From the IMG/VR virus record IMGVR_UViG_2695420685_000007: a DNA stretch of 4,754 bases; one strand, written 5' to 3'. This stretch comes from a virus. Lineage: Duplodnaviria > Heunggongvirae > Uroviricota > Caudoviricetes. The notes below the pieces were generated by a model. That model searched no databases. It saw nothing but the letters and a program-made list of their open reading frames with translations, and was not told the DNA's origin. Both the position numbers and the translations under genes were made by a program. Shown here one piece after another: positions 2,392 through 4,733 of the stretch (positions are counted from its first letter, which is position 1; each line of letters begins with the position of its first letter).

Positions 2392-2717
2392 AAACCTTCC
2401 GCTGGAAAGTGAAACCTGGTATGGATGTGGCTTCGGTCCCTTCCGTAAGAAAGGTGCGCTTTGGTGATGGCTATTCCCAGCGAGCGCCTGCCGGGCTGAA
2501 TGCCAACCTGAAAACGTACAGCGTGACGCTTTCTGTCCCCCGTGAGGAGGCCACGGTACTGGAGTCGTTTCTGGCTGAGCACGGGGGCTGGAAAGCCTTT
2601 CTGTGGACGCCGCCTTATGAGTGGCGGCAGATAAAGGTGACCTGCGCAAAATGGTCGTCGCGGGTCAGTATGCTGCGTGTTGAGTTCAGCGCAGAGTTTG
2701 AACAGGTGGTGAACTGA
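2388..2717 (+). CDS. M: Tail tip assembly / minor tail protein M (lambda gpM-like), 109 aa
   Basis: ORF 2388-2717, 109 aa, MKTFRWKVKPGMDVASVPSVRKVRFGDGYSQRAP..., recognised as lambda gpM. Its ATG (2388-2390) overlaps the H stop TGA (2389-2391), and a strong Shine-Dalgarno GGAGGTGGA sits at 2377-2385. Confidence 0.94.
   Translation: MKTFRWKVKPGMDVASVPSVRKVRFGDGYSQRAPAGLNANLKTYSVTLSVPREEATVLESFLAEHGGWKAFLWTPPYEWRQIKVTCAKWSSRVSMLRVEFSAEFEQVVN
2704..2712 (+). promoter_or_regulatory. Ribosome-binding site for L (AGGTGGTGA), embedded in the 3' end of M
   Basis: 8 of 9 match to AGGAGGTGA, 4 nt upstream of the L ATG at 2717. The M stop and L start overlap (TGATG). Confidence 0.6.
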
Positions 2718-3415
2718 TGCAGGATATCCGGCAGGAAACACTGAATGAATGCACCCGTGCGGAGCAGTCGGCCAGCGTGGTGCTCTGGGAAATCGACCTG
2801 ACAGAGGTCGGTGGAGAACGTTATTTTTTCTGTAATGAGCAGAACGAAAAAGGTGAGCCGGTCACCTGGCAGGGGCGACAGTATCAGCCGTATCCCATTC
2901 AGGGGACGGGATTTGAACTGAACGGCAAGGGCAGTGCTGCCCGTCCGACACTGACGGTTTCTAACCTGCACGGCATGGTCACCGGGATGGCGGAAGATCT
3001 GCAGAGTCTGGTCGGCGGAACGGTGGTCCGGCGTAAGGTTTACGCCCGTTTTCTGGATGCGGTGAACTTCGTCAACGGAAACAGTGACGCCGACCCGGAG
3101 CAGGAGGTGATCAGCCGCTGGCGCATCGAGCAGTGCAGCGAACTGAGCGCGGTCAGTGCCTCTTTTGTACTGGCCACGCCGACGGAAACGGACGGCGCTG
3201 TTTTTCCGGGACGTATCATGCTGGCCCACACCTGCACCTGGACCTATCGCGGCGATGAGTGCGGTTATCACGGTCCGGCGGTCGCGGATGAATATGACCA
3301 GCCAACGTCCGATATCACGAAGGATAAATGCAGCAAATGCCTGAGCGGTTGTAAGTTCCGCAATAACGTCGGCAACTTTGGCGGCTTCCTTTCCATTAAC
3401 AAACTTTCGCAGTAA
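2717..3415 (+). CDS. L: Tail tip protein L (lambda gpL-like), 232 aa, with a C-terminal cysteine cluster
   Basis: ORF 2717-3415, 232 aa, MQDIRQETLNECTRAEQSASVVLWEIDL..., recognised as lambda gpL. Its ATG (2717-2719) overlaps the M stop TGA (2715-2717) by 1 nt, and AGGTGGTGA at 2704-2712 is a near-consensus Shine-Dalgarno. Cys residues at protein positions 173, 182, 205, 208 and 212. Confidence 0.94.
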   Translation: MQDIRQETLNECTRAEQSASVVLWEIDLTEVGGERYFFCNEQNEKGEPVTWQGRQYQPYPIQGTGFELNGKGSAARPTLTVSNLHGMVTGMAEDLQSLVGGTVVRRKVYARFLDAVNFVNGNSDADPEQEVISRWRIEQCSELSAVSASFVLATPTETDGAVFPGRIMLAHTCTWTYRGDECGYHGPAVADEYDQPTSDITKDKCSKCLSGCKFRNNVGNFGGFLSINKLSQ

Positions 3416-3420
3416 ATCCC

Positions 3421-4164
3421 ATGACACAGACAGAATCAGCAATTCTGGCGCACGCCCGGCGATGTGCGCCAGCGGAGTCGTGCGGCTTCGTGGTAAGCAC
3501 GCCGGAGCGGGAAAGATATTTCCCCTGCGTGAATATCTCCGGTGAGCCGGAGGCGTATTTCCGGATGGCTCCGGAGGACTGGCTGCGGGCAGAAATGCAG
3601 GGTGAGATTGTGGCGCTGGTCCACAGTCACCCCGGTGCTCTGCCCTGGCTGAGTGAGGCCGACCGGCGGCTGCAGGTGCAGAGTGATTTGCCGTGGTGGC
3701 TGGTCTGCCGGGGGGCGATTCACAAGTTCCGCTGTGTGCCACATCTTACCGGGCGGCGCTTTGAGCACGGGGTGACGGACTGTTACACGCTGTTCCGGGA
3801 TGCTTACCATCTGGCGGGAATTGAGATGCCTGATTTTCATCGTGAGGATGACTGGTGGCGTCACGGTCAGAATCTCTATCTGGATAATCTGGAGGCCACA
3901 GGGCTGTATCAGGTGCCGTTGTCAGCGGCGCAGCCGGGCGACGTGCTGCTGTGCTGCTTTGGTTCATCGGTGCCGAATCATGCCGCCATTTACTGTGGTG
4001 ACGGCGAGCTGCTGCACCATATTCCTGAACAACTGAGCAAACGAGAGAGGTATACCGACAAATGGCAGCGACGCACACACTCCCTCTGGCGTCACCGGGC
4101 ATGGCGCGCATCTGCCTTTACGGGGATTTACAACGATTTGGCCGCCGCATCGACCTTCGTGTGA
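3421..4164 (+). CDS. K: Tail tip assembly protein K (lambda gpK-like), 247 aa long form: N-terminal JAMM/MPN (JAB) metalloprotease-like domain fused to a C-terminal NlpC/P60 cysteine peptidase-like domain
   Basis: ORF 3421-4164. The frame opens after a TAA at 3397-3399 and the first ATG is 3421, 5 nt after the L stop. JAMM signature readable in the protein: Glu20 (AESCGF), then His68-x-His70-x7-Ser78-x2-Asp81 (VHSHPGALPWLSEAD, nt 3622-3663). NlpC/P60-like residues: Cys121 (GVTDCYTLF, nt 3781-3783), His187 (NHAAIY, nt 3979-3981), His199. An alternative internal in-frame start at 3565 would give the 199-aa form that, as I recall, is the historical lambda K annotation. Confidence 0.88.
   Translation: MTQTESAILAHARRCAPAESCGFVVSTPERERYFPCVNISGEPEAYFRMAPEDWLRAEMQGEIVALVHSHPGALPWLSEADRRLQVQSDLPWWLVCRGAIHKFRCVPHLTGRRFEHGVTDCYTLFRDAYHLAGIEMPDFHREDDWWRHGQNLYLDNLEATGLYQVPLSAAQPGDVLLCCFGSSVPNHAAIYCGDGELLHHIPEQLSKRERYTDKWQRRTHSLWRHRAWRASAFTGIYNDLAAASTFV
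3549..3553 (+). promoter_or_regulatory. Internal Shine-Dalgarno (GGAGG) upstream of the in-frame ATG at 3565 inside K
   Basis: GGAGG at 3549-3553 with an 11-nt spacer to ATG 3565-3567, which is codon 49 of the long K ORF. The 3421 ATG has no recognisable SD in the preceding 20 nt (aaactttcgcagtaaatccc). Confidence 0.4.
4043..4050 (+). promoter_or_regulatory. Ribosome-binding site for I (GAGAGAGG), inside the 3' part of K
   Basis: Purine-rich GAGAGAGG with an 11-nt spacer to the I ATG at 4062. Confidence 0.45.
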
Positions 4165-4733
4165 AAACGGGGGCTGAAGCCATTCGGGCGCTGGCCACAC
4201 AGCTCCCGGCGTTTCGTCATAAACTGAGCGACGGCTGGTATCAGGTACGGATTTCCGGGCGGGACGTCAGCACGTCCGGATTGACGGCGCAGTTACATGA
4301 GGTTCTGCCTGACGGCGCTGTGATTCATATTGTTCCCAGAGTCGCCGGGGCCAAGTCAGGGGGCGTATTCCAGATTGTTCTGGGGGCTGCCGCCATTGCC
4401 GGATCATTCTTTACTGCCGGAGCCACCCTTGCAGCATGGGGGGCAGCCATTGGGGCCGGTGGTATGACCGGTATCCTGTTTTCTCTCGGTGCCAGTATGG
4501 TACTTGGTGGTGTGGCGCAGATGCTGGCACCGAAAGCCAGAACTCCCCGTACACAGACAACGGATAACGGTAAGCAGAACACCTATTTCTCCTCACTGGA
4601 TAACATGGTTGCCCAGGGCAATGTTCTGCCTGTTCTGTACGGTGAAATGCGCGTGGGGTCACGTGTGGTTTCTCAGGAGATCAGCACGGCAGACGAAGGG
4701 GATGGTGGTCAGGTTGTGGTGATTGGTCGCTGA
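4062..4733 (+). CDS. I: Tail tip assembly protein I (lambda gpI-like), 223 aa; N-terminal ubiquitin-like region followed by a Gly/Ala-rich hydrophobic segment
   Basis: ORF 4062-4733, 223 aa, MAATHTLPLASPGMARICLYGDLQRFGRRIDLRVKTGAEAIRALATQLP..., recognised as lambda gpI. Shine-Dalgarno-like GAGAGAGG at 4043-4050. Start lies 103 nt inside the K ORF in the -1 frame relative to K. The stop at 4731-4733 is followed by a short spacer toward J, outside the window. Confidence 0.92.
   Translation: MAATHTLPLASPGMARICLYGDLQRFGRRIDLRVKTGAEAIRALATQLPAFRHKLSDGWYQVRISGRDVSTSGLTAQLHEVLPDGAVIHIVPRVAGAKSGGVFQIVLGAAAIAGSFFTAGATLAAWGAAIGAGGMTGILFSLGASMVLGGVAQMLAPKARTPRTQTTDNGKQNTYFSSLDNMVAQGNVLPVLYGEMRVGSRVVSQEISTADEGDGGQVVVIGR

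What the first reader, a model, noticed from the sequence alone, without database searches (positions are those of the whole stretch)
3421..3567. K start-site ambiguity: only the upstream start (3421) includes the JAMM/MPN catalytic glutamate, while the internal start (3565) has the better Shine-Dalgarno
The long K ORF (247 aa from ATG 3421) carries a complete JAMM signature: Glu20 and His68-x-His70-x7-Ser78-x2-Asp81. The internal in-frame ATG at 3565 (codon 49) is preceded by GGAGG at 3549-3553 and would give a 199-aa protein that keeps the HxH...S..D part but loses Glu20 and the domain's N-terminal strands. The 3421 ATG has no obvious SD and sits 5 nt after the L stop, which suggests expression by translational coupling or re-initiation. 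Either the shorter annotation truncates a real metalloprotease-like domain, or two isoforms are made.
Basis: partly seen in the sequence, partly recalled or inferred. Interest (0 to 1): 0.5.

Follow-up and report, generated by a model that had tools for sequence, protein, structure and literature searches.

The report
Lambda gpK's real start is upstream
The tail-assembly gene K of this lambda-like phage almost certainly starts at the upstream ATG and encodes a 247-residue protein with two protease domains. The familiar 199-residue version traces to one base missing from the 1982 lambda reference sequence, so this is an annotation legacy and not new biology.

Summary
ATG 3421 lies 5 nt after the L stop and has no Shine-Dalgarno. 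ATG 3565 (codon 49) follows GGAGG at 3549-3553.

Codons 1-48 are translated:
- dN/dS is 0.09 for codons 1-48 against 0.14 for the rest of the gene.
- Pfam Prok-JAB scores 52 bits with them and 23 bits (below cut-off) without.
- In about 100 relatives at 31-58% identity, Glu19, Cys21, Gly22 and Asn38 are nearly invariant, while residue 49 is usually Ile.
- AlphaFold2 (pLDDT 97) puts residues 1-48 into the MPN fold. The best PDB match is Pyrococcus JAMM1.

In divergent prophages the K start sits a median 5 nt after the L stop, which fits translational coupling.

The short start has a clear origin. J02459/NC_001416 lacks one G (after 14266, window G3555), which puts the upstream ATG out of frame. 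Every independently determined lambda sequence I retrieved has that G. PGAP and the phage 434 and 21 records already use the long start.

A minor 199-aa by-product in lambda-type phages is not excluded, but sister phages have ATT or ATC at codon 49. Verdict: correct finding, already known.

The parts
3413..3415 (+). Stop codon (TAA) of gene L
   Evidence: Pfam Phage_tail_L matches the ORF 2717-3415.
3416..3420 (+). 5-nt spacer (ATCCC) between the L stop and the K start. It contains no Shine-Dalgarno.
   Evidence: SD duplex energy is +0.7 kcal/mol. The region is predicted to be unstructured. In 38 divergent prophages the equivalent gap has a median of 5 nt.
3421..3423 (+). Upstream ATG, the conserved and most likely functional start of K
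   Evidence: It is ATG in all 67 ungapped close relatives. An ATG lies at K-residue equivalents -1 to 4 in 47 of 48 divergent prophages. The N-termini of distant homologues align here.
3421..3564 (+). Codons 1-48: helix 1 (residues 3-15) and strands 1-2 (residues 21-26 and 31-36) of the JAMM/MPN domain
   Evidence: dN/dS is 0.09. Synonymous to non-synonymous variant codons are 14:12 in frame, against 3:23 and 2:24 in the other two frames. These codons add about 29.5 bits to the Prok-JAB score. AlphaFold2 pLDDT is 97-98 over these residues.
3475..3477 (+). Codon for Glu19, the catalytic glutamate of the JAMM motif, within the ExCG motif
   Evidence: Glu in 102 of 107 distant homologues, with Cys21 in 98 and Gly22 in 104. 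Glu in all 118 closer genes. It aligns with the EaCG of solved prokaryotic MPN proteins.
3490..3492 (+). GTG at codon 24, a third start used in some public annotations. It would also remove Glu19.
   Evidence: Used in the Perceval and mEp460_4F5 records. SD energy is -6.1 kcal/mol. The position is simply a Val/Ile/Leu codon in homologues.
3537..3576 (+). Two predicted local hairpins. Stem 3537-3542/3547-3552 pairs the GGAG of the internal SD. Stem 3559-3565/3570-3576 places the internal AUG at its tip.
   Evidence: The fold is not significantly more stable than shuffled sequence (z = -1.09), so this is weak evidence.
3549..3553 (+). GGAGG, made from the codons CCG GAG GCG (Pro43 Glu44 Ala45)
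   Evidence: It is retained in 79 of 107 related loci that have no start codon at position 49.
3555..3555 (+). The G (third base of codon 45) that is absent from the lambda reference J02459/NC_001416, where it would lie between 14266 and 14267
   Evidence: Alignment A3. 44 of 45 lambda-like loci have the G and none has the version without it. Only 4 of 122 phage records lack it. The MutaMouse lambda-gt10 transgene shows '14266 C>CG' (PMC6760142).
3565..3567 (+). Internal in-frame ATG (Met49), the legacy lambda start that gives 199 aa
   Evidence: Among 212 related loci this codon is ATG in 105, ATT in 59, ATC in 42 and ATA in 4. Among 107 distant homologues it is Ile in 65 and Met in 14.
3622..3663 (+). 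His68-Ser-His70-x7-Ser78-x2-Asp81, the zinc-binding part of the JAMM motif
   Evidence: His68, His70 and Asp81 are invariant and Ser78 is at least 90% conserved in alignment A1.
3751..4092 (+). NlpC/P60 (C40) papain-like peptidase domain, residues 111-224, with Cys121 (3781-3783), His187 (3979-3981) and His199 (4015-4017)
   Evidence: Pfam PF00877 gives 49.2 bits. Cys121, His187 and His199 are at least 90% conserved or invariant. Foldseek matches MepS and other NlpC/P60 structures.
3421..4164 (+). Full gene K (247 aa, about 28 kDa) including the TGA stop at 4162-4164
   Evidence: PGAP annotates exactly this ORF in a prophage of E. coli 2013C-4991 that is 100% identical over window 3380-3700, the stretch compared.

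Best explanation
Gene K starts at ATG 3421 and encodes a 247-residue, roughly 28-kDa tail-tip assembly protein. It has an N-terminal JAMM/MPN+ metalloprotease domain (residues about 3-100, motif Glu19...His68-x-His70-x7-Ser78-x2-Asp81) and a C-terminal NlpC/P60 cysteine peptidase domain (Cys121/His187/His199).

ATG 3421 has no Shine-Dalgarno and lies 5 nt after the L stop in an unstructured stretch. It is therefore most likely read by ribosomes that have just terminated on L (translational coupling or re-initiation). This is inferred, not shown.

The 199-residue gpK that starts at ATG 3565 is an annotation legacy. The 1982 lambda reference sequence lacks one G in codon 45. That puts the upstream ATG out of frame and left 14276 as the only available start. 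The choice was then copied by homology into genomes whose long ORF is intact.

The GGAGG before ATG 3565 is made of Pro-Glu-Ala codons. It is kept equally in sister phages whose codon 49 is ATT or ATC. Any internal initiation in lambda-type phages is therefore probably an incidental by-product.
For: Shown here:
1. Coding constraint. dN/dS for codons 1-48 is 0.09 (dS 0.55), against 0.14 for codons 49-247. Variant codons are 14 synonymous to 12 non-synonymous in frame, against 3:23 and 2:24 out of frame. None of 118 full-length genes has a stop in codons 1-48 and all have Glu19.
2. Distant homologues. 2,679 representatives match at E <= 0.001. In about 100 full-length ones at 31-58% identity, Pro17, Glu19, Cys21, Gly22, Asn38 and Phe47 are invariant or nearly so. 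Residue 49 is Ile in 65 and Met in 14. In 106 of 107 the N-terminus lies at or before K residue 18.
3. Domain integrity. Prok-JAB scores 52.3 bits for the long form and 22.8 bits (below cut-off) for the short form. A profile of the family matches solved stand-alone MPN proteins from profile position 2-3. The AlphaFold2 model has pLDDT 97 and pTM 0.91, with residues 1-48 forming helix 1 and two strands. The best Foldseek hits are PfJAMM1 5ld9/5lda at rmsd 2.5 A.
4. Gene context. In 38 prophages at 47-76% identity the gap from the L stop to the K ATG has a median of 5 nt, and 33 of 38 lie within -4 to +15 nt. A start at the codon-49 equivalent occurs only in the two closest of them.
5. Origin of the short start. 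NC_001416 lacks a G after 14266, so its ATG at 14133 opens only a 76-codon frame. All independent lambda sequences retrieved have the G. The lambda-gt10 transgene shows '14266 C>CG' (PMC6760142). With the G restored, lambda K is 247 aa and 97% identical to the window protein.
6. Existing annotation. PGAP on E. coli prophages, the curated phage 434 and 21 records, and a 2025 lambda record all use the long start.

From the literature: the JAMM glutamate is required for catalysis (Csn5 E56A; PMC300881).
Against: - There is no protein-level or ribosome-level evidence for either start in any tool or paper I could reach.
- ATG 3421 has no Shine-Dalgarno (+0.7 kcal/mol). ATG 3565 has one as strong as real starts in this operon (-9.5 kcal/mol, top 2% of ATGs). 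ATG 3565 is retained in all 67 closest relatives.
- The N-termini of database homologues come from gene callers and are not independent evidence. The residue conservation is independent.
- Coupling to L is inferred only from spacing.
- The hairpins that would hide the internal site are not more stable than shuffled controls.
Confidence: 0.85

Rival explanations
1. Two isoforms. Lambda-type phages make the full-length 247-aa gpK from ATG 3421 and also a 199-aa product from the internal site (GGAGG-N11-ATG 3565). The short product keeps the NlpC/P60 domain but lacks a working JAMM domain. This would resemble lambda's in-frame pairs C/Nu3 and S107/S105, which I cite from my own knowledge. The confidence given is for a functional short isoform. 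Detectable but non-functional internal initiation is more likely, roughly 0.3-0.4.
For: The internal SD is strong (-9.5 kcal/mol; only 2% of plus-strand ATGs match it). Of 11 GGAGG motifs in the window, only this one and the one at the true M start are followed by a start codon at a suitable distance. ATG 3565 is present in all 67 closest relatives and GGAGG in 65 of them. The upstream start has no SD, so ribosome traffic across the internal site may be light.
Against: Codon 49 is ATT, ATC or ATA in 105 of 212 related loci, including large groups of E. coli prophages about 85% identical to this K. GGAGG persists in 79 of 107 loci that lack a start there, so it is not maintained as a ribosome-binding site. 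Residue 49 is Ile in most distant relatives. The short form would begin inside the MPN fold, without helix 1 and two strands. Both the SD and the AUG are predicted to sit in local hairpins, though this is weak evidence.
Confidence: 0.08
2. Only the short form is real. K starts at 3565 as in the lambda reference, and 3421-3564 is an untranslated spacer or a decaying remnant.
For: The reference annotation gives K as 14276..14875, 199 aa, in J02459, NC_001416 and records derived from them. The SD upstream of 3565 is strong.
Against: Purifying selection on codons 1-48 is as strong as or stronger than on the rest of the gene. There are no stops or frameshifts in 118 genes, and catalytic and structural residues are conserved out to 31% identity. 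The reference annotation is explained by a missing base. With the short start there would be a 149-nt non-coding gap, the only one in the otherwise tightly packed H-M-L-K-I block.
Confidence: 0.02
3. K starts at GTG 3490 (codon 24) and gives 224 aa, as annotated in some phage genomes.
For: The Perceval and mEp460_4F5 records use this start. There is a cluster of 224-aa database proteins (P0028). A weak GGAG lies 13 nt upstream (-6.1 kcal/mol).
Against: This start removes Glu19, Cys21, Gly22 and helix 1, which are among the best-conserved parts of the family. The position is an ordinary Val/Ile/Leu codon in homologues.
Confidence: 0.02

Closest known systems
Lambda tail tip assembly protein K as annotated in the reference (NP_040598.1, 199 aa; J02459/NC_001416 14276..14875)
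   Same: It is the same gene. The window protein is 97% identical to lambda K once the missing G is restored. It is essential for tail assembly and is not found in virions (PMC10695390; PMC10721106).
   Different: The reference protein lacks the first 48 residues. It therefore lacks Glu19 and half of the MPN fold, because the reference DNA lacks one G after 14266.
[quoted passage not shown]
   Same: It has the same two-peptidase architecture. It also has the same neighbourhood, L-K-I-J, with gpI carrying a ubiquitin-like domain.
   Different: Nothing differs in substance. That paper predicts that the JAB domain releases the ubiquitin-like domain of gpI. This remains untested. It is compatible with only gpI residues 134/135-223 being resolved in virions.
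Stand-alone prokaryotic and archaeal JAMM/MPN+ enzymes (Pfam PF14464 Prok-JAB; PfJAMM1, PDB 5ld9/5lda; haloarchaeal desampylase, NF041370)
   Same: It has the E...HxH-x7-S-x2-D motif and the same fold (rmsd 2.5 A over about 107 columns). PfJAMM1 was solved bound to a ubiquitin-like protein.
   Different: In K the domain is fused to a C40 peptidase and works in phage tail assembly. Sequence identity is only about 25%. The NCBIfam desampylase score (29.5 bits) is far below its 130-bit cut-off, so K is not an equivalog of that enzyme.
Translationally coupled neighbouring genes in phage late operons
   Same: The stop and start are 5 nt apart and the downstream gene has no SD. The neighbouring junctions are equally tight: H/M is ATGA and M/L is TGATG.
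   Different: Dependence of K translation on L translation has not been tested.
Lambda in-frame internal-start pairs (C/Nu3, S107/S105), cited from my own knowledge
   Same: An in-frame internal ATG with a good SD lies inside a longer ORF.
   Different: In those cases both products are documented and functional. Here the internal start is missing from sister phages and no product has been reported.

Membership tests
JAMM/MPN+ metalloprotease (Prok-JAB, PF14464) | Motif E-x(n)-H-S/T-H-x7-S-x2-D | tested here: met
   Glu19, His68-Ser69-His70, Ser78 and Asp81 are present. All are invariant or at least 90% conserved in 101 sequences. The motif is complete only if translation starts at 3421.
JAMM/MPN+ metalloprotease (Prok-JAB, PF14464) | Profile score above the curated Pfam cut-off | tested here: met
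   52.3 bits against a cut-off of 25 for the 247-aa form. The 199-aa form scores 22.8 bits and fails.
JAMM/MPN+ metalloprotease (Prok-JAB, PF14464) | MPN fold | tested here: met
   AlphaFold2 model with pLDDT 97. Top Foldseek hits are 5ld9/5lda with target TM-score 0.66-0.68 and rmsd 2.5 A. This rests on a predicted structure, not a solved one.
JAMM/MPN+ metalloprotease (Prok-JAB, PF14464) | Zinc binding and (iso)peptidase activity | not testable with these tools
   This needs purified 247-aa gpK, a metal analysis, and a cleavage assay on gpI.
NlpC/P60 (C40) peptidase | Pfam score above cut-off and a conserved Cys-His-His triad | tested here: met
   PF00877 scores 49.2 bits against a cut-off of 23. 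Cys121 and His187 are at least 90% conserved and His199 is invariant. Foldseek hits include MepS and other NlpC/P60 proteins.
Phage TAPK (lambda gpK) family | JAB + NlpC/P60 protein encoded between gene L and the ubiquitin-like gene I in a tail-tip cluster | tested here: met
   Pfam matches in order along the window: Phage_min_tail (M), Phage_tail_L, K, Lambda_tail_I. The stretch is 96% identical in DNA to lambda.
Translationally coupled gene pair (L to K) | Stop and start within a few nucleotides, and no independent SD on the downstream gene | tested here: met
   The gap is 5 nt and the SD energy is +0.7 kcal/mol. The junction is conserved, with a median of 5 nt in 38 divergent prophages.
Translationally coupled gene pair (L to K) | Translation of K depends on translation of L up to its stop codon | not testable with these tools
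   This needs polar nonsense mutations in L combined with a K reporter fusion.
Dual-start gene producing two functional isoforms | Internal start codon and its SD conserved among relatives | tested here: not met
   Codon 49 is not a start in 107 of 212 related loci (ATT, ATC or ATA in 105). It is Ile in 65 of 107 distant homologues.

The most novel reading that the evidence does not exclude
In lambda-type phages that keep ATG 3565 behind GGAGG, a second 199-aa gpK without JAMM activity is made on purpose from the internal site. It would have its own role in tail-tip assembly, for example as an NlpC/P60-only subunit or as a regulator of the full-length protease. K would then be a third in-frame dual-product gene of lambda, alongside C/Nu3 and S107/S105.
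Probability: 0.07. Interest if true: 0.5.

Novelty: already known. Interest (0 to 1): 0.3.

Why it matters
Lambda is the reference phage, and its reference records still give a gpK without its first 48 residues. Both J02459/NC_001416 (NP_040598.1) and the DE3 RefSeq record do this.

Anyone who clones "gpK" from those records expresses a protein that lacks the catalytic glutamate and half of its MPN domain. A 2025 screen for triggers of bacterial immunity cites NP_040598.1 for its gpK construct (PMC12236752).

gpK is essential, is absent from virions, and has no known mechanism. Related open questions remain:
- What removes or hides the N-terminal ubiquitin-like part of gpI. Only residues 134/135-223 are seen in virions.
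- What cleaves gpH to gpH* (PMC10721106, PMC12617516).

An intact JAMM + C40 gpK is the obvious candidate for the gpI step, as predicted in 2006 (PMC1779556). Those experiments only make sense with the 247-aa protein.

The finding does not reveal a new kind of system.

Tried and rejected
- My first script for comparing close loci had an off-by-one error and found nothing. I fixed it.
A smaller alignment worked.
- The lambda ribosome-profiling paper (Liu et al. 2013, PMC3718152) and a lambda review I tried by recalled id (PMC4424060) are not held. I therefore could not check footprints or any published comment on the K start.
- Literature searches found no paper that discusses the K start site or links the 14266 insertion to K.
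- I considered using synonymous-site conservation at CCG/GAG (codons 43-44) to test for selection on the internal SD. At dS of about 0.55 between only two clades it has no power, so I dropped it.
- I considered predicting the 199-aa form with AlphaFold2. A model guided by an alignment would probably still draw the partial domain confidently, so the result would not be informative.
- The hairpins around the internal start are not significantly more stable than shuffled sequence. I give them little weight.
Full report
WHAT THE WINDOW IS

The window carries the tail-tip block of a lambda-like phage. The ORFs are the 3' part of H (34-2391), M (2388-2717), L (2717-3415), K (to 4164) and I (to 4733). 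Pfam matches confirm M, L, K and I. The stretch 3300-4200 is 96-98% identical to lambda, 434, 21 and many E. coli prophages. Window 3380-3700, the part I compared, is 100% identical to a prophage of E. coli 2013C-4991.

CHECKING THE OBSERVATION

Every coordinate in the finding holds except one.
- The L stop TAA is at 3413-3415, followed by the spacer ATCCC and ATG at 3421. That ATG is the first possible start after the in-frame stop at 3397.
- The ORF encodes 247 aa. The in-frame ATG at 3565 is codon 49.
- GGAGG lies at 3549-3553, 11 nt before ATG 3565.
- His68, His70, Ser78 and Asp81 are correct. The glutamate is residue 19, not 20.

Duplex energies with the 16S rRNA tail are +0.7 kcal/mol for 3421 and -9.5 kcal/mol for 3565. 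The real starts of M and L score -10.8 and -7.2. Only 2% of the 91 plus-strand ATGs score as well as 3565.

ARE CODONS 1-48 TRANSLATED?

Four independent lines say yes.

1. Selection. Between this clade and E. coli prophage K genes about 86% identical, codons 1-48 have dS 0.55 and dN 0.048, so dN/dS is 0.09. The rest of the gene gives 0.14. Among 59 distinct close sequences, variant codons are 14 synonymous to 12 non-synonymous in the K frame. The other two frames give 3:23 and 2:24. None of 118 full-length genes has a stop in this stretch, and all encode Glu19.

2. Distant homologues. An exhaustive HMMER search found 2,679 representatives at E <= 0.001.
- In about 100 full-length ones at 31-58% identity, Gly22 and Asn38 are invariant. 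Pro17, Glu19, Cys21 and Phe47 are at least 90% conserved.
- Residue 49 is Ile in 65 and Met in only 14.
- In 106 of 107 the N-terminus lies at or before K residue 18, usually within a few residues of Met1.
- Those N-termini are gene-caller output. The residue conservation is independent of that.

3. Domain models. Pfam Prok-JAB covers residues 3-98 (profile positions 3-103 of 114) at 52.3 bits. The 199-aa form keeps only profile positions 63-103 and scores 22.8 bits, below the 25-bit cut-off. A profile of the family matches solved stand-alone MPN proteins (2kks, 2kcq, 5lda) from profile position 2-3 onward. The ExCG of K aligns with their EaCG.

4. Structure. AlphaFold2 with the 101-sequence alignment gives pLDDT 97 and pTM 0.91. 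Residues 1-48 form helix 3-15 and strands 21-26 and 31-36. The best Foldseek matches in the PDB are Pyrococcus furiosus JAMM1, free and bound to the ubiquitin-like SAMP2. They align over about 107 columns at rmsd 2.5 A. NlpC/P60 enzymes follow for the C-terminal half.

A protein that starts at Met49 would begin inside the fold and lack the catalytic glutamate. That glutamate is required in Csn5 (PMC300881). The C-terminal NlpC/P60 domain is also intact, with Cys121, His187 and His199 conserved.

IS THE INTERNAL START CONSERVED?

No.
- In 212 related loci, codon 49 is ATG in 105, ATT in 59, ATC in 42 and ATA in 4.
- GGAGG is still present in 79 of the 107 loci that have no start codon there.
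- GGAGG is built from CCG GAG GCG (Pro43 Glu44 Ala45).
- Large clusters of E. coli prophage proteins 83-95% identical to this K read "FRIA" instead of "FRMA".
- In prophages at 47-76% identity, only the two closest have an ATG at that position, and neither has an SD.

The internal site therefore looks like a by-product of coding sequence and shared ancestry. The two clades are close relatives, so this argument is suggestive and not decisive. RNA folding places the GGAG and the AUG in two small hairpins, while the 3421 region is open. The fold is not more stable than shuffled controls.

HOW IS ATG 3421 USED?

H/M overlap as ATGA, M/L as TGATG, and L/K are 5 nt apart. In 38 divergent prophages with a recognisable upstream long ORF, the gap from the L stop to the K ATG has a median of 5 nt. 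In 33 of 38 it lies between -4 and +15 nt. SD strength at that start varies from none to good, with a median of -4.2 kcal/mol.

A conserved junction with a dispensable SD is what translational coupling predicts. The coupling itself is inferred, not shown.

WHERE THE 199-RESIDUE ANNOTATION CAME FROM

The distance from the L stop to the short start is 149 nt in NC_001416 and 150 nt in every relative. I therefore aligned the region.
- The reference reads GGAGGC-TATTTCC. Lambda imm21, HK630, 434, Ayreon and the window read GGAGGCGTATTTCC.
- The missing G (window 3555; between lambda 14266 and 14267) lies in codon 45.
- In the reference, the ATG at 14133 opens only a 76-codon frame ending at 14361. 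That left 14276 as the only start for K.
- With the G restored, lambda K is 247 aa (28.3 kDa, against 23.0 kDa for the short form) and 97% identical to the window protein.

Every independently determined lambda sequence I could reach has the G.
- These include lambda imm21, imm434 and h434 imm21, DE3, KT232076, LC730321 (48,503 bp) and PV340536.
- They also include lambda contigs with no mismatches from IMG/VR and from contaminated assemblies of unrelated bacteria. In total 44 of 45 loci have the G and none has the version without it.
- Only 4 of 122 phage records lack it: J02459, NC_001416 and two recent records, OR474059 and OR974322. I suspect these two are reference-derived but did not check.
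- The lambda-gt10 transgene of MutaMouse shows "14266 C>CG" (PMC6760142).
- The announcement of the 434, 21 and hybrid genomes mentions nine differences from the 1982 sequence that are present in many laboratory lambda strains, without listing them (PMC9119081).

STATE OF PUBLIC ANNOTATION

- The short start was copied into records whose long ORF is intact: lambda imm21, HK630, the DE3 RefSeq record and Ayreon.
- The long start is used by PGAP on E. coli prophages, the RefSeq record for ev017, the curated 434 and 21 records, vB_EcoS-640R1, PhiR40_1 and a 2025 lambda record.
- A third start, GTG 3490, appears in Perceval and mEp460_4F5.

COMPARISON WITH WHAT IS KNOWN

The JAMM motif of lambda K was listed in 2003 (PMC300881). 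The JAB + NlpC/P60 architecture was described in 2006, together with its link to the ubiquitin-like gpI (PMC1779556). That paper predicted that the JAB domain releases the ubiquitin-like domain of gpI.

Later findings fit a processing or chaperone role for gpK but do not prove one.
- Virion structures resolve only gpI residues 134/135-223.
- gpK is not detected in virions.
- The protease that makes gpH* is unknown.

I found no paper in the held library that discusses the K start or connects the 14266 base to it.

VERDICT

The suggestion of coupling is plausible. A functional second isoform is unlikely, at about 0.08, although some incidental initiation at 3565 in lambda-type phages cannot be excluded.

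The biology is already known and already encoded in many annotations. What remains is a correction to the lambda reference records and a caution for anyone who expresses "gpK".

Noticed in passing
window 4062-4163 (5' end of gene I, overlapping the 3' end of K): Gene I has at least four annotated starts in public records. ATG 4062 is used in lambda (223 aa), ATG 4101 by PGAP in the prophage identical over the compared stretch, position 4128 in mEp460_4F5, and GTG 4161 by PGAP and other annotation in many records (190 aa). In divergent prophages the conserved start is the Met14 equivalent (ATG 4101, 'MARICLYGDLQRFG'), and many have stops upstream in that frame. The Pfam Lambda_tail_I profile begins at residue 14. 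GTG 4161 would cut off the first strand of the ubiquitin-like domain. ATG 4062 has the strong SD (-9.3 kcal/mol).
   Followed up: partly
L086-L098, L107, L109, L111, L112, L126, L141, L164 (genome-contig hits): Contigs identical or nearly identical to lambda appear in assemblies labelled Neobacillus, Pseudoxanthomonas, Chromatium, Shewanella, Bradyrhizobium, Kitasatospora, Vibrio and others. Several carry about 1x coverage in the contig name. This is almost certainly lambda control or spike-in DNA contaminating the assemblies. A 'Campylobacter phage CJLB-4' record in the phage collection is also lambda-like.
   Followed up: partly
window 4062-4100 compared with loci L128-L161: The apparent cross-species similarity of gpI residues 1-13 in tblastn (for example 'LA*TYTFNLE') is probably imposed by the conserved C-terminus of K, which is read in another frame. 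It is not evidence of translation, because in-frame stops are common there.
   Followed up: partly
protein hits P0012, P0022, P0035, P0045, P0046 (L+K) and P0017, P0031, P0083, P0067, P0090 (K+I): Some database proteins join Phage_tail_L to K, or K to Lambda_tail_I, in one polypeptide. They could be frameshifts or assembly errors. They could also be real fusions of the kind noted for some prophages in PMC1779556.
   Followed up: no
window 3537-3576: The motif CCGGAG or CCGGAT occurs three times (3547, 3561, 3571) and CUCCGG twice. Together they form two adjacent small hairpins around the internal ATG. Their stability is not above shuffled controls.
   Followed up: partly
OR474059.1 and OR974322.1 (phage collection): Two recent 'lambda' records share the reference-specific missing G at 14266. 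One is described as an isolate from chicken cloacal swabs in South Africa and has the same coordinates as the reference. This suggests reference-guided assembly or lambda control DNA, not an independent isolate.
   Followed up: no
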